Source: an uncultured virus (IMG/VR IMGVR_UViG_2600255157_000003) (lineage: Duplodnaviria > Heunggongvirae > Uroviricota > Caudoviricetes). From it: a stretch of 57,517 nt of DNA. The position numbers were made by a program, and so were the translations under genes. Positions 3,133 to 54,049 of this stretch are shown piece by piece. The stretch is from the IMG/VR virus record IMGVR_UViG_2600255157_000003; one strand, 5' to 3'. How positions within the stretch are numbered: position 1 is the first letter of the stretch; each line of letters opens with the position of its first letter. The notes under the pieces are model-generated. The model made no database searches. It was not told the origin of the DNA and saw nothing but the letters and a program-made list of their open reading frames with translations.

Positions 3133-3987
3133 TTACACCTCTCCCACATTCACAAACCGTTCAATATATTCTCGACCATCGCCTTTGAAAATCGGGATAT
3201 CCTTGTCGATAATCCAATTATTCTCACCTTGTTTCTGATCTCGCAACATACATTTTTCTGTAACTTCATCGCATTCAAGAACAACTTTATTTCTTACCAC
3301 ACAGCTCCCACGTTTCTGATATGTGGGCAAGTCGTTCCAATTAATACCCTTCTGAGTCATAAGCATATCCTGAATATCATTACAGGACTTATGTTGTAAT
3401 TCTTTATGACTGAAATTTGCTTGTCCTACCATCTGAATACTGTTTCTGGAAGCATCAAGTTGCCGCCAGTAAAAATTGTTTGTAACTTCTTCTTTTGGAA
3501 GATTAAATACACGAGAATCAAATACTAATCCCATCTTTATTGCTTTTTTGAGAACTTTAACATATTTTTCTTCTACATCGGAATGATTCCATGCTTCATA
3601 AAAATCATCTATATACATCTCAGCATTACTTGTAAAATATTTATTAAAAGCAAGCGTAGCCATAGCAGCCGAAATAGAAATTATTTTATCAATTCTATAA
3701 TCAAACCACGACTCAGTATTTAGTTTCTCATAATCTACAAGTAATAAAGTTATCTCGTCACTTTGTATGTAAGCACATTGACATCCTTGTATATTCTCAC
3801 ACAAATACTTTGCTGTTTCTTGCATACTTTTCATGAAGATTTCATCAAATGGTCTTTTAAAACCTTTTGTAAATGTGTGTCCAGCCCTTGAATCTAACCT
3901 AATGATTACTGGCAATCTTTTCTGTAAATAATATCTATTGCGTTTTTCATAATCTTTCATTCTATTTGCCAAATCACTTGTATCCAC
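3133..3987 (-). CDS. tRNA(His) guanylyltransferase Thg1-like 3'-5' polymerase
   Basis: IIRLDSRAGHTFT, YIQSDEITL, FDSRVF, WRQLDASRNS and INWNDLP motifs. Confidence 0.92.
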   Translation of the reverse strand: MDTSDLANRMKDYEKRNRYYLQKRLPVIIRLDSRAGHTFTKGFKRPFDEIFMKSMQETAKYLCENIQGCQCAYIQSDEITLLLVDYEKLNTESWFDYRIDKIISISAAMATLAFNKYFTSNAEMYIDDFYEAWNHSDVEEKYVKVLKKAIKMGLVFDSRVFNLPKEEVTNNFYWRQLDASRNSIQMVGQANFSHKELQHKSCNDIQDMLMTQKGINWNDLPTYQKRGSCVVRNKVVLECDEVTEKCMLRDQKQGENNWIIDKDIPIFKGDGREYIERFVNVGEV

Positions 3988-3999
3988 TTTTATTCCTCC

Positions 4000-4515
4000 C
4001 TATATTGTCAAGTGATTTTCCTTAAAAAATCAAGGAATTTATAGTTACATATCTCAGATGAATGAGCCAAGGAGATGGACATTTCTCTGTATCTGGTACG
4101 AAAATAGAGGGTGAAGGGTACACGAAGTAGAACGTCTTTGTTTTCGCTCTACATGGCCTTATGTATACCCATCCTTCTATGGCAGCGTACCTCCCGTGTC
4201 TACCAGGATCACCCTGCATCTCTACTGGGGTCCTAACTTCCTTCGTCCCGCCTGTCCATAACCAGGGTGCCGGCTCAGCTCCTAACCAGGGTCATGCCCT
4301 ATGGAAAATATTCCTGCCGGCTACCAGCTCATTCTTTGTATAAGTCTTACTGACCTGTATGTTTTCCACGGCCGGCACCTTGCGGTGGACGTTTTTCCGG
4401 CCGGTTTTCCATACCTTCCAGCTTTCCTGTCACCGCTGGATTCAGCTCCCGGCAGCGTCTGACGGAGGCTCAGTCCAACTGTGACAGGGCATTGTCTGTT
4501 TTTTCCCGTTGTTTG
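4000..4515 (-). ncRNA. IS110 non-coding end, candidate bridge/seek RNA
   Basis: About 515-nt GC-rich segment with no credible ORF inside the IS, downstream of the recombinase; IS110 elements encode guide RNAs in non-coding ends. Confidence 0.55.
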
Positions 4516-5802
4516 TTATGCTGCCTGTACCTGTGGCCTCTTGATGTCTCCCAGCAGCTTCTTTGGGTCATACTCTACACCTTTTGTGAGGATTGCATAA
4601 AATATCCTTAGTATCTTGCAGGCTACCGCCACTACCGACTGCATCTTTTTCAGCGGGTTCTCCTTCCTCGTCCGGTAGTATTCATGTATCTCCCGGAACT
4701 CTGCATTCTTCCCCACCAGCGATATTGCTGCCTCATACAGTACATATCTCAGGCGTTTCCGCCCACGGTAGCTGATCCGGCTTTCCCCATTATGTTTTCC
4801 GGAATCATTCGCCACGATGGCATATCCTGCCAGCTTCTGCAGCTGTTTGGGATTGTCAAACCGTCCTATGTCCCCAACTTCCGCTATAAAGCCGCTGACC
4901 GTCACCATTCCGATCCCCTTGATAGCCAGCAGGTTGTCTATATATGGGATCTCTTTCAGTTTTTCTTCTATATTTCGGAGCAGTCCCTCCTGCCTTGCTG
5001 TATATACATCCATGTCATCCAGCAGGTTCTTCAGTTCCATCCTTGCGGCTTCCGGTGCTTCCTTGCTTCCAACGCTATGCTCCGCGGCCGTTACAAGGGT
5101 CTTTGCCCTCTTCATTCCAGCACCTCTCAGCTTTGCGTCCCTCCATATCCGGTTCACACCTTCCACTCCCAGTTTTCTGATGTCCTCCGGCAGCGGTGCC
5201 TCCTTCAGCACCATCCTCCCGCTCACCGCCTTCAAATCCCCGTAAACGTCTTTATATTCAGGAAAGTAGATGGCGAACCATCTGGCCAGGCGGTTCTTGA
5301 TCCTCGTGAGCTCCTCCTGCGTCTGGAAGCGCAGGTTCGATAAGCTCCTGATCTCTGCATAGATGCCGACTGGCATGTAAGGGTATGAGAATCTTCCCTC
5401 GTTGACAAGCGCAGCGATCGTCTTGGGATCCTTTCGGTCATTCTTGTTGGGGTTGTTGTCATCCAGTTCTTTCGATTTCTTCACATGGTGGGGATTTACA
5501 TGTACCGGCTTCATTCCGTTATCCTGCAGGAATTTCCCCAGGGCGAACCAATAGTGGCCTGTCGGCTCCATGCCGGGGATTACAGCAGTTTTGCCATGTT
5601 TCTCCGCCATGTCCTCCATCCATGCTTTGAATGTCTGGAATCCGGCCTCTGTGTTGCTGAACTCCAGCGGTTTCTTTGTGTACTCGTAGTTGCGCCAGTC
5701 AAATGCTCGGGCATAATGAGTTTCACTTCCCACATCAATACCAACGATCAAAGTTTTTTCAGTTATGGATGCAATTTTTGCGTTCTGTGTGTTATAATTC
5801 AT
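4516..5802 (-). CDS. IS110 DEDD transposase/recombinase
   Basis: IVGIDVGS, GMEPTGHYW, NKNDRKDP, IKGIG and NDSGK...SRISYRG motifs. Confidence 0.95.
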   Translation of the reverse strand: MNYNTQNAKIASITEKTLIVGIDVGSETHYARAFDWRNYEYTKKPLEFSNTEAGFQTFKAWMEDMAEKHGKTAVIPGMEPTGHYWFALGKFLQDNGMKPVHVNPHHVKKSKELDDNNPNKNDRKDPKTIAALVNEGRFSYPYMPVGIYAEIRSLSNLRFQTQEELTRIKNRLARWFAIYFPEYKDVYGDLKAVSGRMVLKEAPLPEDIRKLGVEGVNRIWRDAKLRGAGMKRAKTLVTAAEHSVGSKEAPEAARMELKNLLDDMDVYTARQEGLLRNIEEKLKEIPYIDNLLAIKGIGMVTVSGFIAEVGDIGRFDNPKQLQKLAGYAIVANDSGKHNGESRISYRGRKRLRYVLYEAAISLVGKNAEFREIHEYYRTRKENPLKKMQSVVAVACKILRIFYAILTKGVEYDPKKLLGDIKRPQVQAA

Positions 5803-5934
5803 CTTGGATACCTCTCTGTTAAATAAGATTTTTACTAACCATCCAAAAGTCAGTAATCTTATTTTACTCTGAGGTATCTTTTTATCAACCACCCTTCTTG
5901 GAATTCCCTATATTTGAATTATACAGGAAGCTCC

Positions 5935-6360
5935 TTATAGTAAGCATGGCAATGCGTTTAAATATTTTTCTTTTAATTCATCTGTCAATGTCTCTGTTTC
6001 AGATAAATGATCCTTCATGTCAGCCATCTTGACCCAATATGCTTCTGGATAAGAATTAAAGTTACTCTTTATATTGATCAAATAATCCTCATATGAAACT
6101 TTTTCTTTATCTCTTGTAAGTAATTCAAGACATTTTTTAATGTAAGAATCATATGACTGAATGTCAGGATCATTAAAATAATCAAACTTCGTATCTTCCT
6201 GTAAATCATGCATAATCGCTAACGCTACACATTTTTCCAACTTTTCCTTTGGAATTGAATTGTCATTTACTACAAATGCAACCACTCTCATTGCATGATA
6301 GTATGTATTTTTATTGTAGTATTTTCTTGCTACTTTAATTGCATCCGTAATCACACTCAT
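5935..6360 (-). CDS. HD-domain hydrolase, SpoT/Mesh1-like (small alarmone hydrolase candidate)
   Basis: YYHAMRV, MHDLQEDT, LLTR and VKMADMKDH motifs. Confidence 0.8.
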   Translation of the reverse strand: MSVITDAIKVARKYYNKNTYYHAMRVVAFVVNDNSIPKEKLEKCVALAIMHDLQEDTKFDYFNDPDIQSYDSYIKKCLELLTRDKEKVSYEDYLINIKSNFNSYPEAYWVKMADMKDHLSETETLTDELKEKYLNALPCLL

Positions 6361-7267: not shown

Positions 7268-8719
7268 CTATACATTTATCTTTGCTTTTGCTTCTATGTA
7301 ATTATTTAGTTCTTTCTTCATATGTAAAAAATTTTTTCGCTGATCCGGGAAATACATATTATTTTTTGCAGCATACTGTTCTAACCACTCGTCCAAATCC
7401 ACATCTCGCTCATATGAATACGCCACCAAAGCTAATAATGATTTTCTATTCTCGATATTAAGAAGTTTTGAACCATCTCTAATTGTTTTGTCAGTCAAAC
7501 TATAAAGTGTTTCATTATATACTTCCATTTCTTCAATAACTTTTTCCAGATCCATGTTGAGCACATCAGCAATGAAAGACTCATTTTCTGTGTCACAAAT
7601 GCCATTATCGGTTTCATTTTTTGCGTCTATATGTAAAAATTCGTTCATTAGATTTATGATATAATCAATCTTTCTGTTTATTAAACTTTTATCTTTTGTA
7701 TTGCGGTCGGAATCAATCTTTCCCCAATCTTCACCATCTATTTCTTTGAATTTCAGACTATTAACAAATGCCTTTAAAAATTCGCCAAATCTATCATCTG
7801 AAATATGCAAGTTTGTAAATCTGTTGAATACCATCATCCAGATAAACAAATTTTTCGATGTAAAAAGAGCGGCAACCTCACTTTCATCAATTTTGTCACA
7901 ATATGGAATTAATCTCTTAAAATATACTTCTATATTCTTATATTCCTGTTCTGATGAATTTTCATTAAGGTAATCACACATATCCTTCGGTGTCCTTTTC
8001 CAGTTCTCATAATGATAAATACCCATCACACACTCAGAAATAACCCTTTCCCATATGCCCTTTTCTTTTTCATTTTCCGATAACATAGTACAATCCATTA
8101 AAAATCTGTTCGTATCTTTAATTCTCTTTATTTCATCCGCATATTTACCTATATAAGTAAATGCTTTTTGAGCAGCGTTCATGGCAACATGATTATTATA
8201 AAGAAGTACTAATTCTGATGTTTCTTCAGTTGCACAGTCCTGATATATTACTGTAGTCAATGGACATCCATTAAATTTATTTTTTAACTCCTGTGGCAAA
8301 TCTTCGTATGTTTTTCCTCTGATATCAAATTCTTCTACTTCACATTGGATATTTCCATACTCATCTCTTAAATATTCTCCATTTTCATCAGTTTTTTTCT
8401 TTGTGTAGGGAACAATATAACTTCTTAATTTATTTGTAATTTTATACCCGTTATACTTAAACTGATATAAGGTCTCTGTTCTTTGCCCGCCATCAACAAC
8501 ATAAGTCTGTTTAGTTCCGTCTTTTTTCTTTTCTTCTGCAAGTATTAAGTTGGGAATATATATTTTTCGTGATAATGCACTATATATAAGAGCATTCATC
8601 ATCTCTTTGCCCCAGCAAAAACTTCTTTGTACAGCCTGATCAATCTTTATGTCTTCACTTTCTACACCATCTAAATACTGCCCTACACTTAACGGCTCAA
8701 TCCTATATTCATCTAACAT
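7268..8719 (-). CDS. DUF262 (GmrSD/ParB-Srx fold) protein
   Basis: VQRSFCW and VVDGGQRT motifs. Confidence 0.8.
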   Translation of the reverse strand: MLDEYRIEPLSVGQYLDGVESEDIKIDQAVQRSFCWGKEMMNALIYSALSRKIYIPNLILAEEKKKDGTKQTYVVDGGQRTETLYQFKYNGYKITNKLRSYIVPYTKKKTDENGEYLRDEYGNIQCEVEEFDIRGKTYEDLPQELKNKFNGCPLTTVIYQDCATEETSELVLLYNNHVAMNAAQKAFTYIGKYADEIKRIKDTNRFLMDCTMLSENEKEKGIWERVISECVMGIYHYENWKRTPKDMCDYLNENSSEQEYKNIEVYFKRLIPYCDKIDESEVAALFTSKNLFIWMMVFNRFTNLHISDDRFGEFLKAFVNSLKFKEIDGEDWGKIDSDRNTKDKSLINRKIDYIINLMNEFLHIDAKNETDNGICDTENESFIADVLNMDLEKVIEEMEVYNETLYSLTDKTIRDGSKLLNIENRKSLLALVAYSYERDVDLDEWLEQYAAKNNMYFPDQRKNFLHMKKELNNYIEAKAKINV

Positions 8720-8721
8720 TT

Positions 8722-9381
8722 TTATCTCCTCCTGACTAATCCAGATATACATCTTACATTTTTATACGATCTTATTGCCGCTATACAATCTAAGTATAAC
8801 TTTGTATCTATATGTAATATGCTTTTAATCTCTTCAGATGAATAGCCATCTGCCATAAGCTCTAAAACTCTAATCTGAATTTTTGATAATCTCCCCAAGT
8901 ACCTTTTCATTTCTGGAGAAAACTCTTCTTTAGATCCAATTATTTCTGATAAAACACTTTCTATGGTAAAATCAGACTGTAGCGTATCCCCAATCGTCAT
9001 ATTCTCATATTCATTTAAAGGCGTATCAATAGAAACATCTGTTAAAGGAATTTTCACTTTATTGCCTTTCTCGTCAATAGATTCAATTTTAAATACACGT
9101 TTATCACGATATCGCTTTTTATATTCATCTTTAATAGCAAATAATATGGATCTGTATATATATCCGTCAAAATCTCCTTTAGACGGATCATATCTTTTAT
9201 TCCAGAGAATATCCATTACCACATCACTTCCTATTCCATAAAACTCTTCCATGTCTTTTCCCGTAATTCCACCATAGTGTGTAATAAAAATCTGATTTAT
9301 AACAGTATGAAGTTTTTTTGCGTTATCAGCATAATATGCATTTATTATCTGCTCCAAATAGACATCTGACACCTGTTTCAT
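8722..9381 (-). CDS. Phage sigma-70-like factor
   Basis: YDPSKGDFDGYIY region 2, SIDTPL, and C-terminal LSKIQIRVLEL..DGYSSEEI HTH. Confidence 0.75.
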   Translation of the reverse strand: MKQVSDVYLEQIINAYYADNAKKLHTVINQIFITHYGGITGKDMEEFYGIGSDVVMDILWNKRYDPSKGDFDGYIYRSILFAIKDEYKKRYRDKRVFKIESIDEKGNKVKIPLTDVSIDTPLNEYENMTIGDTLQSDFTIESVLSEIIGSKEEFSPEMKRYLGRLSKIQIRVLELMADGYSSEEIKSILHIDTKLYLDCIAAIRSYKNVRCISGLVRRR

Positions 9382-10283: not shown

Positions 10284-10346
10284 TTTTTCTTCTCCTTCCT
10301 TAAAAATGGGTATAAAAAATACAGTGTACTTGAAACACTGATTTAA

Positions 10347-10421
10347 TGGATTTATTGGGAATCGAACCCAAGACATACTGACTTTAAAATCAACTGCTAC
10401 TACCAACTGAGCTATAAATCC
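10347..10421 (-). tRNA. tRNA-like gene with aberrant 8-nt anticodon loop (Lys-derived or pseudo-tRNA)
   Basis: GGATTTA/TAAATCC acceptor, TAGCTCAGTTGGTA D arm, TTGGG-TTCGATT-CCCAA T arm; loop TTTTAAAG. Confidence 0.7.
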
Positions 10422-10487
10422 ACATTTTTATTTTCTTTGAAATTTGAGTATTTTGCAGAACCGCTTGATAAAACTTTTAAAATTCAC

Positions 10488-47720: not shown

Positions 47721-50471
47721 GTGGTGGTATATATACTTGATAAGCAATATAATATGTATTCTGTAGATACTGGGCATTTTTACAGCAATCATGAGAAATA
47801 TTTACATAATATGAATTGCAAATATCGCAGAGAACGTAATTATGTCCAGAATAAATTACCAGAAATTAAAAAGCAGTTGAAACAGTTTGGATATACAGAA
47901 GATGATATTAAAAACTTAAAAAATGATAAAACAGAAGAAGTTAATATTATTGAATCTTCTTATGACACTGTTTCTGAATATTTACATTGGGCAAGGTTAA
48001 TTAAGCATAAAAGAGAAAAAGCGAAAGAGTCAAAAGCAAAGTTGCTTACTCTTTTATCTAATAAAGTTAATCAGAATGAATTAACAGATGGAAAAGATCA
48101 TACTCGTACAATCAAAAAAGACAGTTTGAATGATACAAATATAATATCTGTGTTTGACTCTGCTCTCAGCAGAACCATTGGTATTAAACAGGATGAATTA
48201 ACTGATGCTCTAATGGTGGTTCAGGTTTACTATTTTGATGTGTTTAAGGATATATCCTTTTATGGATTTACATATAAAGGCGAAAAATATAAGTATTTTA
48301 CTTCTTCAGCAGGACAGATCCGTAAAAAGAAGGCAGTATTTGTTAAAGAATCTGTATGGAATGAGATTGAAAAGACTGTTATGTGTGGTCTTACAATAGA
48401 TAAAATTAATTCAAAAGGTGGAAACAATGTCAATAAGCATCTGGCTTATATGGCTTTAACAAACTCTGCTACTGATGAGTGGAAAGAATTTGATATTGAT
48501 AAATCCATTGTCATTGATGATTTTGAGACTGATGTATATGGTACTTTTGACTTTGTAGATGAGACTGATTATTCAATTACAAGAAAAACTGATTATGTGC
48601 CAATTCCTCATACTGACGGAGCTGGTATGATTCTGCCGTCAGTTTCCAGTAAAAACTTTATGTTCCGTGCGCCCTGGATTAAGGGATTATTAGGTGTGTT
48701 CAATTTTAGGAAGTTTATAGAAGTTAATAACTACTCTCCTATTATTACAGACATTTATGGTCAGGAATACGATGTTATTAAAGAGGATATACAGATTATC
48801 TTTACAAAATCACAGTTCAAGATGTACAAATATTATGACTCATGGGACGAATATAAGGAATATTTCAAAGAGTATCGTTGTAGCGCCGGTAAATGTAATG
48901 TTGAAGAAGATAGGATAAAAAATGCAAAGATAAATTATCAGATGCTCCAGACTCTTACAAATATCACTGATGATGAAATTGATTTGCTGACACAAAAATC
49001 AGCAGAACGGATTAGTAATGTATGCAGTTCTAAAGATACTATGATGGATATTTTGGGTATTACGCCATACAACACGAATATGACTGCTTTTCAAAAGGCA
49101 GTTAAAATGTATCCTGCTTTACTTAATGATTCATATGCTAAAGATGTGATCCGTGAAGTAAAGAACAGTCTTTTGAAAAAATATCGTAGTGGCAAGTTAG
49201 AAGTCAATGGTAAATATACTTTCTTACTTCCTGACTTCTATGCTGCTTGCGAATATTGGTTTGGTCATATTAATACCCCTACTGGTTTATTAAGCGACAA
49301 AGAGGTATTCTGTTGGTTATTTAAGCGATATGAAAAATTGGATTGTTTAAGAAGTCCTCATCTATACAAAGAACATGCAATTCGCTTTAATGTTGCCAAT
49401 GAAGTTTATGGAGACAGGTCAAAATATATCAGAGAATGGTTTACTACTGATGGAATTTATGCCAGCACACATGATCTAATCAGTAAGATTTTGATGTATG
49501 ATGTTGACGGAGATAAAAGTCTTGTTGTAGCAGATAGGGATTTTATAAGAATTGCAGAACGTAATATGAACGGTATTGTACCACTCTATTATAATATGCG
49601 AAAGGCAGAACCAACTCAGCTTAACAATAAGAACATATATGTTGGACTTAATGCTGCTTTTACGGGTGGGAATATTGGTATATATAGTAATAATATTTCT
49701 AAGATATGGAATGATGATGTATTTATTTCTGGAACCGATATAGAAAAATCGGAAGCAATTGATTGTGTAAAAAGATTATGTTGTCAAAACAATTTTGTGA
49801 TCGACTACGCCAAAACCTTATATAAACCAGAATTTCCTCATGAAATAAATGAACAGATTGCTAAATACACAAATTGCAAATTACCCGCTTTCTTTGAATA
49901 TGCAAAGGATAAAGAAAAATCACAAGTAAAAAAGCGTAATGAAAGTTTTGTAAATAAGATATATGAGAGAATTCCTAATAAGCCTATAAATACTCGTGGT
50001 TTGAAATTAGATAGTATCAATTATAAACATATGATGTCTAATCTCCAAATTATTTGTAGTAAAGAGGTATCTGATTTATATGATGAGTTAAACAAACAAT
50101 ACCGTTATATGATCAATATGAAAGATGAATATATAGATAATCTCAGATATATTGCTTGTAAAATACGAAAAGAATTTGCTATATTTGGATATTCAGAAGA
50201 AACCATCACAGATATGTTAGTAGAATATCTATATGGTAAAGGAAAACGATATAAACAGTTATTATGGTTCTGTTATGGACAATATATTGTAAATAATTTG
50301 GAAAGAAATATTGAAGTGGAGAAGACTAAATTTATTAAATGTATTGATTGCGGTGAATGGCTTGAAGTTCTTACTAACAGTAAAAGAATCAGGTGTGATG
50401 ATTGTTTGCAGCAAGAACGAAAAGAACATAATAAAAAGATGTATCAAAAAAGAAAAATTCAACCAAGTTGA
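47721..50471 (+). CDS. yonO: YonO-like single-subunit (two-barrel) RNA polymerase
   Basis: TSSAGQIR, HTDGAGM, RAPWIKGLL, RSPHL and catalytic YDVDGD motifs; C-terminal Zn ribbon. Confidence 0.88.
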   Translation: MVVYILDKQYNMYSVDTGHFYSNHEKYLHNMNCKYRRERNYVQNKLPEIKKQLKQFGYTEDDIKNLKNDKTEEVNIIESSYDTVSEYLHWARLIKHKREKAKESKAKLLTLLSNKVNQNELTDGKDHTRTIKKDSLNDTNIISVFDSALSRTIGIKQDELTDALMVVQVYYFDVFKDISFYGFTYKGEKYKYFTSSAGQIRKKKAVFVKESVWNEIEKTVMCGLTIDKINSKGGNNVNKHLAYMALTNSATDEWKEFDIDKSIVIDDFETDVYGTFDFVDETDYSITRKTDYVPIPHTDGAGMILPSVSSKNFMFRAPWIKGLLGVFNFRKFIEVNNYSPIITDIYGQEYDVIKEDIQIIFTKSQFKMYKYYDSWDEYKEYFKEYRCSAGKCNVEEDRIKNAKINYQMLQTLTNITDDEIDLLTQKSAERISNVCSSKDTMMDILGITPYNTNMTAFQKAVKMYPALLNDSYAKDVIREVKNSLLKKYRSGKLEVNGKYTFLLPDFYAACEYWFGHINTPTGLLSDKEVFCWLFKRYEKLDCLRSPHLYKEHAIRFNVANEVYGDRSKYIREWFTTDGIYASTHDLISKILMYDVDGDKSLVVADRDFIRIAERNMNGIVPLYYNMRKAEPTQLNNKNIYVGLNAAFTGGNIGIYSNNISKIWNDDVFISGTDIEKSEAIDCVKRLCCQNNFVIDYAKTLYKPEFPHEINEQIAKYTNCKLPAFFEYAKDKEKSQVKKRNESFVNKIYERIPNKPINTRGLKLDSINYKHMMSNLQIICSKEVSDLYDELNKQYRYMINMKDEYIDNLRYIACKIRKEFAIFGYSEETITDMLVEYLYGKGKRYKQLLWFCYGQYIVNNLERNIEVEKTKFIKCIDCGEWLEVLTNSKRIRCDDCLQQERKEHNKKMYQKRKIQPS

Positions 50472-50995: not shown

Positions 50996-51077
50996 AATTT
51001 GTCATTTATGGCAGCTAAAAAGAGAAGGACTAAATGTAACTGAAAATATATTGAATTATGAAAAGGAGTAAAAAATT

Positions 51078-51692
51078 ATGAATCTAAAAGAATCATACCG
51101 TTATGCAAATTACCTTGATACACTTTTAAATACAGCTTATCGTTATTTACAGAACAAAGGGTTTACTACTACAACCAAACAGAATCACTTGCGTTCAAAA
51201 GCAAATAGCGAAGCCAGTGATGAAATAGTTGAGGTACAGAAACCATATGACGTAGAATTCACTCCAAATGATGTTATTGATTTTGTCGTAGGTGTGATTA
51301 CCGAAAAAGAACTACTGGCTAATGCCATTGCAAAGGCTAAATCTGGTGCAGAGATTAATATTGATAATGCTGTTGCGATGAATAAAAAGAAACAGGCATT
51401 TGTTTCTGTATTGAGTGGAATCGTTAATATTAAACCTAGTGAGAAAACGACACAGGGCACTGATTACAAATTTAATCAGCAGGACGGCAATCAGATTCGA
51501 TATTATTACAATATTGAAGAGACAACAATTATCGACTTTAATCGAAATGATGTTAAGGCATTGATTAAGAAATATAGTAAAGAATGTGATGATATTTCTG
51601 CAAAGTTGGATGCTATTGAAATCAATACAATTGTTGAACATACACAGAAGTATGATATTTCTGATACGTTTGAAGATCTGGTGGGTGCATAA
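51078..51692 (+). CDS. Coiled-coil protein, weakly DIP1984-like
   Basis: MNLKES.. N-terminal helix and IKKYSKECDDISAKLDAIEINT C-terminal helix; family call is tentative. Confidence 0.6.
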   Translation: MNLKESYRYANYLDTLLNTAYRYLQNKGFTTTTKQNHLRSKANSEASDEIVEVQKPYDVEFTPNDVIDFVVGVITEKELLANAIAKAKSGAEINIDNAVAMNKKKQAFVSVLSGIVNIKPSEKTTQGTDYKFNQQDGNQIRYYYNIEETTIIDFNRNDVKALIKKYSKECDDISAKLDAIEINTIVEHTQKYDISDTFEDLVGA

Positions 51693-51713
51693 TCCCACCA
51701 CTCTTCTACCCTC

Positions 51714-52232
51714 ATATCAGATGTTTAAAACAGAATTGAAATTGATTTTGTAATGGTCAATCGGTTCAGATGCAGATGAACTATGACGCTGCGAGGATAA
51801 CATTATCCAGAAAATGTTAAAATCCAATAGTAAATAATGCATTTACATATATATTACTTTCAAGAAAATGGTAAGTTTAAGACTTATTGATTGATGAGGA
51901 AAATATATAAATATTCCAAAACTATTCAATTATCTAATAGTGCTATGTATATTGCGATTTGCTATTTCGATATTTTGTAATTTTGACAATTTGTTAAATT
52001 GAGAATTTGAAATTTTGAAAATCACTTCGTTATTCGTTTATTCAGAATATTGGTTATAGGGATACCCTATTATAGATGATAATATTAACAAATATTATTT
52101 CTTTAATGAAAAAGAAAAATTTTTGAACAATATATTTCAAATTAAAAAACTTGATTTATATCAGTATTTTACTGATAACAAATTGATTGAGATTACATAA
52201 AAGATTTCAGTTCTGTTTTAAACATCTGATAT
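51714..52232 (+). ncRNA. Candidate ~520-nt structured RNA with long closing stem and 8-nt periodic tract
   Basis: 51714-51743 pairs 30/30 (two G-U) with 52203-52232; inner stem 51749-51766 with 52181-52197. Confidence 0.7.
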
Positions 52233-52319
52233 TTGGAAACTCTTTGCTTCATAATTTTATTTCTCATTTCTGTCACAGGTGACGGTACTGCTATTCTAGC
52301 GGTATCGTCATTTGTTCTT

Positions 52320-52393
52320 GTATCCATAGCTCAGTTTGGTAGAGCATCTGACTTTTAATCAGAATGTCATAGGTTCAAATCCTATTGGGTACA
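52320..52393 (+). tRNA. tRNA-Lys(UUU)
   Basis: GTATCCA/TGGGTAC acceptor; TCTGA-CTTTTAA-TCAGA; ATAGG-TTCAAAT-CCTAT. Confidence 0.92.
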
Positions 52394-52395
52394 TT

Positions 52396-52465
52396 TGCGG
52401 TAAGGTGTAAATGGTTGCATATTGGGTTCATACCCCAATGGGTCTGTTCGAGTCAGAATCCGCTA
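52396..52465 (+). tRNA. tRNA with CAT anticodon, initiator-like, imperfect acceptor stem
   Basis: TTGGG-TTCATAC-CCCAA with three G-C pairs; 1:72 mismatch; TCTG-TTCGAGT-CAGA. Confidence 0.65.
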
Positions 52466-52585
52466 CTCTTTTGTCTGTTTAGTACAAACAGTCCTCCGTT
52501 GCTAGGCTCATCGTCAATAGCCCACCATATGTAAACATATAACAAATTGATAATAAAAAAAATATAAATGAAAGGAAGATTTCAA

Positions 52586-52798
52586 ATGGCAAAATTAGAT
52601 AATACACACCAAACAATTGAAAATATTGTAGGTGCAAGAGTTGAGGAAATCAATGGCGAATTAGTTTTAGTGAATGAGGAAGCATTTGACGCTCCTATTA
52701 GTATTGTAAATATGTTTAAACAGTATGTTGGACAGGCTATTGATCTTAAATTGGGTGGAGCTGCTCCAATTTCTAGTTCGATGTTTGATGAAGAATGA
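52586..52798 (+). CDS. Small acidic protein, YonK-like by synteny
   Basis: About 70 aa immediately before the YonJ-like gene. Confidence 0.5.
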   Translation: MAKLDNTHQTIENIVGARVEEINGELVLVNEEAFDAPISIVNMFKQYVGQAIDLKLGGAAPISSSMFDEE

Positions 52799-52804
52799 AA
52801 GTAG

Positions 52805-54049
52805 GTGACTACTCTGTATAATTTTAATGAAGAATTAGCAAAGTATGGATTAACTACTGATACATATGAAAAGGTATGTAAGGATATTTCTGATAAATTA
52901 GAAGGAAATAACGATCTTGATTGGGCAGAGATCCAAGCAAAATATAATATTACCTGCAATTCAGATACAATTCGCAAGGCATCTTCTACTATCTTTGGCG
53001 GTCAGTTTAGAACAGAATATCTTAAAAATCAAATCTATACCAATCCAGAAGAATTTTCAAGAGAGAAAGAATTAGATAAGAAAATTGCAGATATGCGAAA
53101 AGAACGTATGAAATTGCAGACTGCCAATATAGAGCGGAACCGTGTAGATAGAAATGAATCTCGTCAAGAAATGTATTATGAATATGTTGGTAATGTTTGT
53201 ACCGCTCTTCCACTTCCAGAATTTCAGCCACTATATTATGATTCAGCAGAAAACGAATTAGGATATATCATGTCTCTTGCAGACATCCATTATGGTGCAA
53301 AATTTAAAAGTGAAAATAATGAATATTCACCAGAAATCGTAAAAGAACGATTTGAAAATTTATCTGGATATGTTATTGAATTCATTCAAAAACATAAAGC
53401 AACAAAACTTCATATAGCTTCATTGGGCGATATGGTACAGGGAATTTTACGTGTTAGTGATTTAAAAATTAACGATTCTACCATTGTTAGATCTACTGTG
53501 GAGATTAGTAGGTTAATCGCATTATTTTTAAGAGAATTATCTGTGTATACAAAAATTGAATACTATCATACCCCTTCGGCAAATCATAGTCAATTACGTC
53601 CATTAGGAACTAAAGCAAGTGAAATTGCAGATGAAGATTTAGAATATCTTATTGGAAATTATATAAAAGACTTATGTATTGGTAATAAAAGAATTTCTGT
53701 TCATTTGGCTGAAGAAGGCAAACAATACATAGAAATTCCAATTATGGGAAATGAAGTTATTGCTATGCATGGCCATCAGTTAAAAAATATAGAAAATTCT
53801 ATACGTGATTTAAGTATGATGAGACGAAGCTTTATTGACTATCTATTATTAGGACATTTTCATTCTGGTAAGGAAATTCCTAGTTTTGAAGGATGTTGTA
53901 ATGATACGGAAATATTGGTAAGTCCTTCTTTCATTGGTAGCGATCCTTATAGTGATTCTATTATGAAAGGTAGCAAAGCTGCTGTTAAAATATATGGATT
54001 TGATAGTACATACGGACACATAGAAACATACAAATTTATTTTGAATTAG
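52805..54049 (+). CDS. Calcineurin-like metallophosphoesterase (YonJ-like)
   Basis: LADIHYG, LGDMVQG, ANHS, MHGH and LGHFH motifs. Confidence 0.85.
   Translation: MTTLYNFNEELAKYGLTTDTYEKVCKDISDKLEGNNDLDWAEIQAKYNITCNSDTIRKASSTIFGGQFRTEYLKNQIYTNPEEFSREKELDKKIADMRKERMKLQTANIERNRVDRNESRQEMYYEYVGNVCTALPLPEFQPLYYDSAENELGYIMSLADIHYGAKFKSENNEYSPEIVKERFENLSGYVIEFIQKHKATKLHIASLGDMVQGILRVSDLKINDSTIVRSTVEISRLIALFLRELSVYTKIEYYHTPSANHSQLRPLGTKASEIADEDLEYLIGNYIKDLCIGNKRISVHLAEEGKQYIEIPIMGNEVIAMHGHQLKNIENSIRDLSMMRRSFIDYLLLGHFHSGKEIPSFEGCCNDTEILVSPSFIGSDPYSDSIMKGSKAAVKIYGFDSTYGHIETYKFILN

What the first reader, a model, noticed from the sequence alone, without database searches (positions are those of the whole stretch)
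51078..52232. Coiled-coil protein followed by a ~520-nt RNA with a long closing stem and a strict 8-nt periodic tract
Seen: 21 nt after the stop, 51714-51743 pairs fully with 52203-52232 and the helix continues via 51749-51766 with 52181-52197. All four non-Watson-Crick pairs are G-U on the + strand, which points to RNA-level selection. Inside, G recurs exactly every 8 nt at 51961, 51969, 51977, 51985, 51993, 52001, 52009 and 52017 within AWWTYG units, flanked by 7-nt TTG/TTCG units; a GC-richer block lies at 51762-51810. Known: ring proteins such as TRAP bind periodically spaced RNA repeats; DIP1984 is an oligomeric coiled-coil protein. Inference: an undescribed ribonucleoprotein in which an oligomer of the upstream protein wraps the periodic tract; the DIP1984 link is tentative.
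Basis: partly seen in the sequence, partly recalled or inferred. Interest (0 to 1): 0.82.

Follow-up and report, generated by a model that had tools for sequence, protein, structure and literature searches.

The report
New phage RNA with partner protein
A prophage of a gut Clostridia bacterium carries a previously undescribed, elaborately folded RNA of about 520 bases that always sits directly behind the gene of one small protein, so the two look like a portable RNA-protein pair whose job is still unknown.

Summary
Arms 51714-51743 and 52203-52232 pair, and eight WTTTGWWA units put a G every 8 nt from 51961 to 52017.

It is a structured RNA, not a MITE. It is single-copy in its 7.0-Mb genome. 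Homologues of the 204-aa ORF (29-90% identity) are followed on the same strand by a long closing helix in 72 of 77 loci. All 26 pairs of the closing stem show compensatory changes. Mismatches are G:T over A:C by 119:38, against 1.24:1 expected.

Inside the stem lies a nearly invariant H-type pseudoknot. Every locus found by searching for that pseudoknot, 42 of 42 and 8 of 8, has the protein gene just upstream.

Rfam 15 has no match.

The protein model (pLDDT 90.6) matches only PDB 3KDQ over its whole length, at Z 10.6.

The strict 8-nt periodicity is confined to the window's AT-rich clade, 17 of 70 elements.

Protein binding to the RNA is inferred, not shown.

The parts
51078..51692 (+). Gene of the 204-aa partner protein. 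It has the fold of PDB 3KDQ and no Pfam, PHROG, NCBIfam or PADLOC family.
   Evidence: ORF. No family hit. 1025 relatives and 903 clusters at 50% identity. Model pLDDT 90.6. 3KDQ at Z 10.6.
51680..51699 (+). Small hairpin GGUGGG-UGCAUAAU-CCCACC lying over the stop codon, with no U-run behind it. Possibly a 3' stabiliser of the mRNA part (inferred).
   Evidence: Sequence. The stem differs but still pairs in relatives (UGUGGG/CCCACA, GUGGUAAA/UUUACCAC, GUGGUGAA/UUCACCAC), read by eye from the alignment.
51714..51743 (+). P1, 5' arm of the closing stem.
   Evidence: All 26 P1 pairs have changes on both sides and 93.4% of cells are paired.
51750..51762 (+). P2, 5' strand (GUAAU, GG bulge, UCAAUC).
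   Evidence: In one search, 10 of 11 pairs have changes on both sides, but only 70.7% of cells pair across all 69 sequences. The alignment of the GC-rich relatives is uncertain here.
51763..51792 (+). PK1, a nearly invariant H-type pseudoknot. S1 is GGUUCA 51763-68 with UGAACU 51777-82. S2 is GCAG 51772-75 with CUGC 51789-92.
   Evidence: The core is present with at most 4 mismatches in 58 of 80 protein loci. The second S1 pair is G-C in 59, C-G in 9 and U-A in 1 of 69 sequences. S2 has one compensatory change, A-U to G-C. Diverged variants with compensatory S2 were read by eye.
51795..51818 (+). PK2, a second pseudoknot. Stem GGAU 51795-98 with AUCC 51805-08. Loop AACAUU 51799-804 pairs with AAUGUU 51813-18.
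   Evidence: Read by eye on the 21-sequence alignment. Both helices keep pairing with different sequences, for example loop UGUGAU with AUCACA and AUGAUAA with UUAUCAU.
51957..52046 (+). G-poor tract, probably single-stranded. Eight 8-nt units WUUUGWWA (51957-52020) are followed by about 7-nt UUCG units.
   Evidence: RNAalifold predicts no conserved pairing here. Relatives have UUUC units or a C/U-rich, G-poor tract instead.
52158..52178 (+). Last internal hairpin (AUCAGUA / UACUGAU), just before the 3' strand of P2.
   Evidence: A hairpin stands at the same place with unrelated sequences in relatives, read by eye.
52185..52196 (+). P2, 3' strand, within the conserved motif AAAUUGRUUGARAUUA.
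52203..52232 (+). P1, 3' arm of the closing stem.
52275..52315 (+). Long hairpin followed by a T-rich tail. Probably the intrinsic terminator of the ORF + RNA unit.
   Evidence: 19 pairs, 7 of them G-C. It is conserved with a changed stem in the AT-rich clade, by eye. Across all loci my loose scan is not above its control: 18 of 56 against 13 of 56.
52319..52394 (+). tRNA-Lys (UUU). A neighbour, not part of the element.
   Evidence: A tRNA directly downstream in 6 of the 7 IMG/VR loci scanned, Lys in five and Thr in one. Met or Lys in L064 and L065.

Best explanation
The region 51714-52232 encodes a large structured noncoding RNA of a family not in Rfam. The RNA and the 204-aa gene in front of it form a portable two-part module carried by phages and prophages of Clostridia.

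Shown:
- The RNA has a closing helix of about 40 bp (P1 + P2).
- Directly inside that helix is an almost invariant H-type pseudoknot (PK1).
- Further in are a second pseudoknot, several hairpins and a G-poor unpaired tract. In this clade the tract is an array of eight 8-nt WUUUGWWA units.
- Gene and RNA are always adjacent, on the same strand and in the same order, while the surrounding genes differ.

Inferred:
- The ORF and the RNA are made as one transcript that ends at the hairpin with T-run at 52275-52315.
- The long P1 helix is a processing or stabilising stem, an RNase III-type substrate like the stems that flank rRNAs. Cutting it would release a stable RNA of about 500 nt.
- The 3KDQ-fold protein binds this RNA. 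PK1 is the most likely specific site and the repeat tract a possible platform for several subunits.
- The resulting particle acts in trans in the infected or lysogenic cell.

My odds:
- A structured RNA family genetically coupled to the protein: about 0.9.
- Direct protein-RNA binding: about 0.5.
- One subunit per 8-nt unit on the tract: about 0.2.

The confidence given for this explanation (0.55) is for the whole statement, including direct binding.
For: Structure and selection:
- On 69 sequences, 89.1% of cells pair against 71.4% in shuffles (0 of 500 shuffles reach it) and 32-42% when partners are slid. P1 has changes on both sides in 26 of 26 pairs.
- With strand-neutral scoring, G:T mismatches outnumber A:C by 119:38 in 56 genome loci and by 71:15 in 15 IMG/VR representatives. 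The ratio expected from arm composition is 1.24. G:T exceeds A:C in 41 loci, is lower in 7 and equal in 8.
- PK1 S1 covaries (G-C 59, C-G 9, U-A 1) and S2 has one compensatory change.
- PK2 and the last hairpin keep pairing with unrelated sequences (by eye).

Linkage to the protein:
- 42 of 42 IMG/VR loci with the exact 23-nt core have the protein gene (46-90% identity) ending about 70-145 nt upstream.
- 8 of 8 loci with the GGU variant of the core have it 86-99 nt upstream. Six are full length, one is split over two frames and one shows only the C-terminal part.
- 58 of 80 protein loci have the core with at most 4 mismatches, 58-264 nt downstream.
- In a motif-free test, 72 of 77 loci have a closing helix above the highest control score. 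Three loci were too short to test.

Portability:
- Neighbouring genes differ between loci.
- The core pattern occurs in 0 of 400 other genomes of the same family, one per genus.
- Both parts are single-copy in the own genome.

Transcription:
- Only 21 nt separate the stop codon from P1, with no U-run terminator between them. A terminator-like hairpin follows P1.
- Metatranscriptome contigs from mouse gut bridge the ORF/RNA junction. X2 record 9 covers 51350-51978 with 0 differences. X4 record 24 covers 51065-52319.

Protein:
- The model is confident: pLDDT 90.6, pTM 0.65.
- Basic and aromatic residues are conserved on the long beta-hairpin: Y130, K131, F132, Y142, Y144.
Against: - No experiment or prediction here shows that the protein binds the RNA.
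- The protein is acidic, pI 5.0-5.4 in three members.
- No nucleic-acid-binding family was detected.
- Lag 8 is the best lag in only 17 of 70 elements. In the other 49 elements, power at period 8 is barely above shuffles, 1.56 against 1.42. The repeats therefore cannot be the universal binding platform.
- The RNA-library evidence consists of assembled contigs. They give no strand or ends, and DNA carry-over is possible.
- A terminator after P1 is not detected above control across all loci: 18 of 56 against 13 of 56.
- G:T asymmetry would also fit a hairpin in single-stranded DNA of the + strand.
- A canonical DIP1984-family gene elsewhere in this genome has no such element behind it.
Confidence: 0.55

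Rival explanations
1. RNA-only machine, as in ROOL and GOLLD. The RNA folds, and perhaps self-assembles, without the protein. The upstream gene is merely co-expressed or acts in the same pathway without binding the RNA.
For: - The setting matches ROOL and GOLLD: large, pseudoknotted, phage or prophage-borne, and here next to a tRNA. [quoted passage not shown]
- The protein is acidic.
Against: - Adjacency is near-absolute in both search directions over 29-90% protein identity, while all other neighbours vary. Such coupling usually marks physical partners.
- ROOL and GOLLD have no such dedicated gene, according to the passages read.
Confidence: 0.17
2. Cis-acting 3' UTR. The structure controls stability, 3' processing or translation of the ORF's own mRNA, possibly through feedback by the protein, and has no function in trans.
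For: - The structure starts 21 nt after the stop codon, on the same strand, with no terminator in between.
- Contigs from RNA libraries bridge the junction.
Against: - Elements of 300-650 nt with two pseudoknots and a 19-nt core almost invariant down to 29% protein identity are far more than a stabilising 3' end needs.
- The RNA core is much better conserved than the protein.
Confidence: 0.1
3. DNA-level element. It would be a replication origin or a single-strand initiation or packaging site, with the 8-bp units as iterons bound by the upstream protein as initiator, and the inverted repeat as a DNA hairpin or cruciform.
For: - It is AT-rich with short tandem repeats beside a gene of unknown function and lies among replication and recombination genes: exonuclease, HU.
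- G.T pairs are also tolerated in single-stranded DNA hairpins.
Against: - The repeats are absent from most relatives, while the pseudoknots and the closing helix are kept.
- The G:T over A:C asymmetry excludes a symmetric duplex site.
- An 8-bp spacing is out of phase with the DNA helix (general knowledge).
- The cumulative GC-skew minimum of the window lies near 38-39 kb, not here.
- The module sits in unrelated gene contexts.
- Contigs from RNA libraries cover it.
Confidence: 0.05
4. Toxin-antitoxin or abortive-infection pair of the type III kind. The RNA would neutralise the protein, which would be a toxin, in a prophage-borne defence or addiction module.
For: - It is a portable module of one protein plus one RNA, with varying neighbours, in prophages.
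- The RNA contains tandem repeats.
Against: - As I recall them, type III systems have the repeat RNA upstream of the toxin behind a terminator, repeats of about 34-45 nt and an endoribonuclease toxin. Here the order is reversed, the units are 8 nt long and clade-specific, and there is no PADLOC hit.
- The module also occurs in large contigs called viral.
Confidence: 0.06
5. MITE or other transposon with terminal inverted repeats.
For: Inverted arms of 30-41 nt enclose about 440 nt.
Against: - It is single-copy in the 7.0-Mb genome.
- No target-site duplication is present.
- The arms covary with a G:T bias.
- Its position and orientation relative to one gene are fixed.
Confidence: 0.01

Closest known systems
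ROOL and GOLLD RNAs (Rfam families; cryo-EM in PMC12286853)
   Same: They are large, pseudoknot-rich noncoding RNAs of unknown function carried by phages and prophages, often beside tRNA genes (passages read). The window's copy is followed by tRNA-Lys.
   Different: - There is no match to either model, even at E up to 10, so this RNA is not a member.
- ROOL and GOLLD are described as RNA-only, with no dedicated protein gene. This RNA is always preceded by one particular gene.
- A tRNA lies within 300 nt in only 2 of 56 genome loci.
OLE RNA with its OapA partner gene (recalled, apart from the mention of OLE in PMC12286853)
   Same: A large ornate RNA of Bacillota that works as a ribonucleoprotein, with a partner gene next to the RNA gene.
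   Different: OLE is chromosomal and its partner is a membrane protein (recalled). There is no Rfam match here. Here the module is phage-borne and the protein has the 3KDQ fold.
TRAP bound to (G/U)AG repeats
   Same: Short, evenly spaced repeats in single-stranded RNA could each contact one subunit of an oligomer.
   Different: TRAP is an 11-subunit beta-sheet ring that binds triplets 5-6 nt apart (recalled). Here the units are 8 nt long, clade-specific and untested. The fold differs, being helical with one long beta-hairpin.
DIP1984 family (NCBIfam NF038048; PDB 3KDQ)
   Same: 3KDQ is the only whole-length fold match: Z 10.6, rmsd 3.1 A, 145 of 152 residues, model residues 1-187. Foldseek gives probability 1.00 and TM 0.52/0.67.
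   Different: - There is no sequence-level similarity. No NCBIfam or Pfam hit was found for 15 members. hhalign against this genome's own DIP1984-family protein gives probability 1.5%.
- That canonical gene (151 aa) is followed about 200 nt later by the next ORF, with no large RNA.
- The function of the family is unknown.
Type III toxin-antitoxin systems such as ToxIN (recalled)
   Same: A pair of one protein and one repeat-containing RNA on mobile elements.
   Different: The gene order, repeat length and toxin type differ (recalled). There is no PADLOC hit.

Membership tests
ROOL (Rfam) | Match to the Rfam covariance model | tested here: not met
   No ROOL row at the gathering threshold over the window, nor at E up to 10 over 51650-52330 or over L131:3100-3700. 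Only tRNAs were found in 20 relatives' loci.
GOLLD (Rfam) | Match to the Rfam covariance model | tested here: not met
   Same searches as for ROOL. No GOLLD row.
ROOL/GOLLD kind (works like) | Phage or prophage-borne, large, multi-pseudoknot RNA near tRNA genes | tested here: met
   The setting is a prophage or phage. There are two pseudoknots. A tRNA lies directly downstream in the window and in 6 of 7 IMG/VR loci, but within 300 nt in only 2 of 56 genome loci.
ROOL/GOLLD kind (works like) | Homo-oligomeric RNA-only assembly | not testable with these tools
   Needs cryo-EM or native gels of the transcript.
DIP1984 family (NF038048) | Score above the curated cut-off of the NCBIfam model | tested here: not met
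   No NF038048 row for any of 15 members at E up to 1. The model does find another gene in this genome at 176.7 bits. hhalign of A3 against that protein gives probability 1.5%.
DIP1984 family (NF038048) | Fold of PDB 3KDQ | tested here: met
   VIA-align Z 10.6, rmsd 3.1 A, 145 of 152 residues. Foldseek probability 1.00. That 3KDQ is DIP1984 is recalled.
MITE / TIR transposon | Multiple dispersed copies and target-site duplication | tested here: not met
   One copy in the own genome. No duplication at the ends.
Type III toxin-antitoxin | Tandem repeats of about 34-45 nt upstream of an endoribonuclease toxin gene (recalled definition) | tested here: not met
   The RNA lies downstream of the gene, and its units are 8 nt long. 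No PADLOC hit.
TRAP-like ring on spaced repeats | Oligomeric ring protein binding evenly spaced RNA repeats | not testable with these tools
The repeats are present but confined to one clade.

The most novel reading that the evidence does not exclude
The module encodes a new kind of phage ribonucleoprotein particle. Subunits of the 3KDQ/DIP1984-fold protein would nucleate on the invariant pseudoknot. They would then line up along the single-stranded tract in an 8-nt register, most visibly in this clade. The result would be a defined RNA-protein assembly that acts on a host process, for example by sequestering a host factor or countering a defence. If so, it would give a first function to the DIP1984 fold. 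It would also add a protein-dependent counterpart to the RNA-only ROOL and GOLLD cages.
Probability: 0.2. Interest if true: 0.88.

Novelty: new variant of a known kind. Interest (0 to 1): 0.78.

Why it matters
Large, highly structured bacterial and phage RNAs are rare, and several of them (ROOL, GOLLD, OLE, raiA) still lack a known function.

This family is widespread in phages of gut Clostridia. Its partner protein has at least 903 clusters at 50% identity.

I found no description of it. It is not in Rfam 15. It did not appear in the paper searches. The core motif is absent from the supplementary files of PMC10690425 and PMC8040213 that could be searched; several large files there could not be searched.

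Unlike ROOL and GOLLD, it comes with an obvious candidate partner protein. That makes its biochemistry directly testable by co-expression, pull-down and cryo-EM.

It also ties a structural-genomics fold of unknown function to RNA.

Tried and rejected
Searches that found nothing:
- A blastn search of cultured phages with 51000-52400 matched only the tRNA. A tblastn search with the protein found nothing.
- A PDB profile search gave no hit.
- The protein atlas returned only unnamed phage clusters.
- Earlier findings of this scan: nothing by place or by sequence.
- Paper searches for DIP1984 and 3KDQ gave nothing relevant.

Steps that could not be run:
Oligomerisation therefore stays untested.

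Negative or weak results:
- The promoter scan gave 16 sites against 16.3 expected, so it is uninformative.
- My terminator heuristic after P1 found 18 of 56 against a control of 13 of 56, so it does not discriminate.
- tRNA adjacency as a defining feature is rejected: 11 of 56 loci have any tRNA within 2.5 kb and 2 of 56 have one within 300 nt.
- 8-nt periodicity as a family-wide feature is rejected.
- Pairing of the periodic tract with the downstream A-rich region appears in the single-sequence MFE but has no support in the consensus fold.
- The automatic pseudoknot finder gave spurious picks in about 20 diverged loci. For those I rely on reading by eye.
- The profile search of 1.84 billion representatives listed only strong hits, so it could not bridge to the DIP1984 family.
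- The depths of the RNA-library contigs cannot rank expression.
Full report
**Observation**

The ORF 51078-51692 encodes 204 aa. Twenty-one bases after its stop codon, 51714-51743 pairs with 52203-52232. The only two non-Watson-Crick positions are U.G on the + strand. The repeat finder gives ungapped arms of 41 nt at 88% complementarity, with 437 nt between them.

After a small internal loop the helix continues. GUAAU 51750-54 pairs with AUUAC 52192-96, and UCAAUC 51757-62 pairs with GAUUGA 52185-90.

About 7-nt TTCG units follow. Its identity at lag 8 is 0.62, above all 210 shuffles (maximum 0.50).

**Not a transposon and not in Rfam**

The element occurs once in its 6.96-Mb, 40-contig genome. 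The only other matches are its own two arms. The ends carry no target-site duplication.

Rfam 15 finds only the tRNA-Lys at 52319-52394 and one other tRNA in the window. At E up to 10 it finds nothing credible over the element or over a GC-rich relative. In 20 relatives' loci it finds only tRNAs.

**Conservation and linkage**

The protein has 1025 relatives in the 5.8-billion-protein collection. It has 903 clusters at 50% identity with E up to 0.001. None are in cultured phage records.

A 23-nt core of the element occurs exactly in 42 IMG/VR contigs. All 42 encode a homologue of the protein, at 46-90% identity, ending about 70-145 nt upstream on the same strand. Two of the 42 are only partly matched. 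The noncoding core is therefore far better conserved than the protein.

A scan of one genome per species with a protein alignment returned 80 loci at 29-71% identity. They come from Lachnospiraceae, Oscillospiraceae and other Clostridia, plus a few MAGs labelled otherwise.
- The core GGTTCAGRTGCAGATGAAC, with at most 4 mismatches, lies 58-264 nt downstream in 58 of the 80.
- Most of the remaining 22 carry visibly diverged versions of the same pseudoknot. One (L129) has only 19 nt of sequence downstream. L070 has the core 1.5 kb away (read by eye).

I then ran a test that uses no motif: a local helix search between the first 280 nt and the following 770 nt downstream of the gene, with the parallel orientation as control.
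- 72 of 77 loci score above the highest control score of 35.
- The median is 45 against 23 for the control.
- L070, L072, L080, L082 and L140 do not exceed the control.
- Three loci were too short to test.

The reverse test with the GGU variant of the core found 8 IMG/VR loci. All 8 have the protein profile ending 86-99 nt upstream: six full length, one split over two frames and one with only the C-terminal part.

The neighbouring genes differ from locus to locus: helicase, phosphoesterase, purine-synthesis genes, regulators. The core pattern is absent from 400 other genomes of the same family, one per genus. The pair therefore behaves as a portable module.

**RNA or DNA**

On a 69-sequence alignment, the structure P1 + P2 + PK1 gives 89.1% paired cells. 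Column shuffles give 71.4% (0 of 500 reach the observed value), and slid partners give 32-42%. All 26 P1 pairs have changes on both sides.

With scoring that treats G:T and A:C alike, the closing helices hold 119 G:T against 38 A:C in 56 genome loci. The 15 IMG/VR representatives hold 71 against 15. Arm composition predicts a ratio of 1.24. G:T exceeds A:C in 41 loci, is lower in 7 and equal in 8. These sequences are related, so the binomial P value is not a true probability.

This asymmetry rules out a symmetric duplex site and points to a + strand single-stranded fold. RNA is favoured over single-stranded DNA for four reasons:
- The orientation behind a gene is fixed.
- Two pseudoknots are present.
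- A terminator-like hairpin with T-run follows P1 at 52275-52315.
- Contigs from mouse-gut metatranscriptome libraries of three studies lie over the region. Two of them bridge the ORF/element junction: X2 record 9 (51350-51978, 0 differences) and X4 record 24 (51065-52319, a relative).

The contig evidence is weak. Contigs carry no strand, and DNA can be present in such libraries.

**Anatomy**

Directly inside P2 lies PK1. S1 is GGUUCA 51763-68 with UGAACU 51777-82. The hairpin loop carries GCAG 51772-75, which pairs with CUGC 51789-92.
- The second pair of S1 is G-C in 59, C-G in 9 and U-A in 1 of 69 sequences.
- S2 is invariant apart from one A-U to G-C double change.
- Diverged loci show S2 as UGUC/GACA, ACAG/CUGU or ACGG/CCGU (by eye).

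That stretch competes with S1. S1 covaries, and the proposed 3' partner does not.

PK2 follows. Its stem is GGAU/AUCC, and its loop AACAUU pairs with AAUGUU 51813-18. Both helices change compensatorily among 21 AT-clade sequences (by eye).

A hairpin at 52158-52178 is likewise kept with unrelated sequences.

The central part is poorly alignable, and RNAalifold predicts no conserved pairing for the periodic tract. In close relatives the units read UUUC instead of UUUG. In GC-rich relatives the equivalent region is a C/U-rich, G-poor tract.

Lag 8 is the best lag in 17 of 70 elements, against 12 of 210 shuffles. Power at period 8 is 3.1 against 1.6 in the AT-rich clade, but only 1.56 against 1.42 in the others. 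The strict array is therefore a clade feature. The pseudoknot and the closing helix define the family.

**The protein**

No Pfam, PHROG, NCBIfam, PADLOC or PDB-sequence match was found.

The AlphaFold2 model from a 15-sequence alignment is confident, with pLDDT 90.6 and pTM 0.65. It shows long helices and one long beta-hairpin at residues 121-150.

Its only whole-length structural match is 3KDQ, annotated as a functionally unknown conserved protein from Corynebacterium diphtheriae.
- VIA-align gives Z 10.6, rmsd 3.1 A and 145 of 152 residues.
- Foldseek gives probability 1.00.
- All other rows align only a helical hairpin of about 60 residues.

Sequence-level membership fails. The genome's own canonical DIP1984-family gene has no large RNA behind it.

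The protein is acidic, pI 5.1. It keeps conserved Lys/Arg residues, and aromatic residues on the beta-hairpin.

**Mechanism**

Shown:
- This is a structured + strand RNA family.
- It is genetically locked to one protein gene in a mobile module.

Inferred:
- The ORF and the RNA are co-transcribed and terminate at 52275-52315.
- P1 is a processing or stability stem.
- The protein binds the RNA, with PK1 the likeliest specific site.
- The particle acts in trans.

It is untested and cannot be the family-wide mode.

**Comparison with known systems and novelty**

In lifestyle the RNA resembles ROOL and GOLLD (passages of PMC12286853 read). It is not a member of either family, and unlike them it has a dedicated gene. 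In having an adjacent partner gene it resembles OLE with OapA (recalled).

I found no earlier description (searches; supplements searched). Some large supplementary files of the two catalogue papers could not be searched. They may hold fragments of this RNA as anonymous candidates.

I rate it a new class within the known kind of large phage-borne structured RNAs, with a candidate protein partner.

Noticed in passing
window 10346-10422 (-): A tRNA gene (Rfam 53 bits) for which ARAGORN reports a four-base anticodon, ttaa, and no amino acid. It could be a suppressor or frameshift-type phage tRNA.
   Followed up: no
window 47721-50471 (+): A 916-aa protein that matches Pfam RdRP (PF05183, E 6e-9) and phrog_8308 (E 4e-250). 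I recall this as the YonO type of single-subunit two-barrel RNA polymerase of SPbeta-like phages. It lies two genes upstream of the module.
   Followed up: partly
window 3133-3987 (-): A Thg1-like tRNA-His guanylyltransferase domain protein (PF04446, E 5e-27). Together with the phage tRNAs it suggests that this phage invests in tRNA repair or supply.
   Followed up: no
window 4001-6000; ORF 4516-5892 (-): An island of 47-49% GC in a window of about 31% GC holds an IS110-family transposase (PF01548 and PF02371). It is probably an insertion sequence inside the prophage.
   Followed up: no
window 7268-8752 (-): A protein with a GmrSD N-terminal domain (PF03235, E 5e-10), the kind found in restriction enzymes that depend on modified DNA.
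   Followed up: no
window 52319-52394 (+) and relatives L006, L007, L064, L065: The tRNA that follows the RNA varies: Lys(UUU) here and in most close relatives, Thr in L006, Met in L064. The position seems to accept different tRNA genes.
   Followed up: partly
L094:1230-1665: This relative carries a second copy of the pseudoknot core about 35 nt after the first (TCAGATGCAGATGAACTTGACGCTGCA), seen in the alignment and.
   Followed up: no
L070 (core at +1476 from the gene end): Here the RNA core lies about 1.5 kb downstream of the protein gene instead of about 80 nt, as if something had been inserted between gene and RNA.
   Followed up: no
G000:C34:57503-57946 (L152:1498-1953): The same genome has a canonical DIP1984-family gene (NF038048, 176.7 bits) elsewhere. 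It has no large noncoding region behind it.
   Followed up: partly
window 52486-52900: Contigs from RNA libraries have their highest summed depths just downstream of the tRNA, over the small ORF 52568-52798. Contigs of relatives replace 52319-52486 with other sequence, so the tRNA slot is variable. The depths of contigs cannot rank expression.
   Followed up: no
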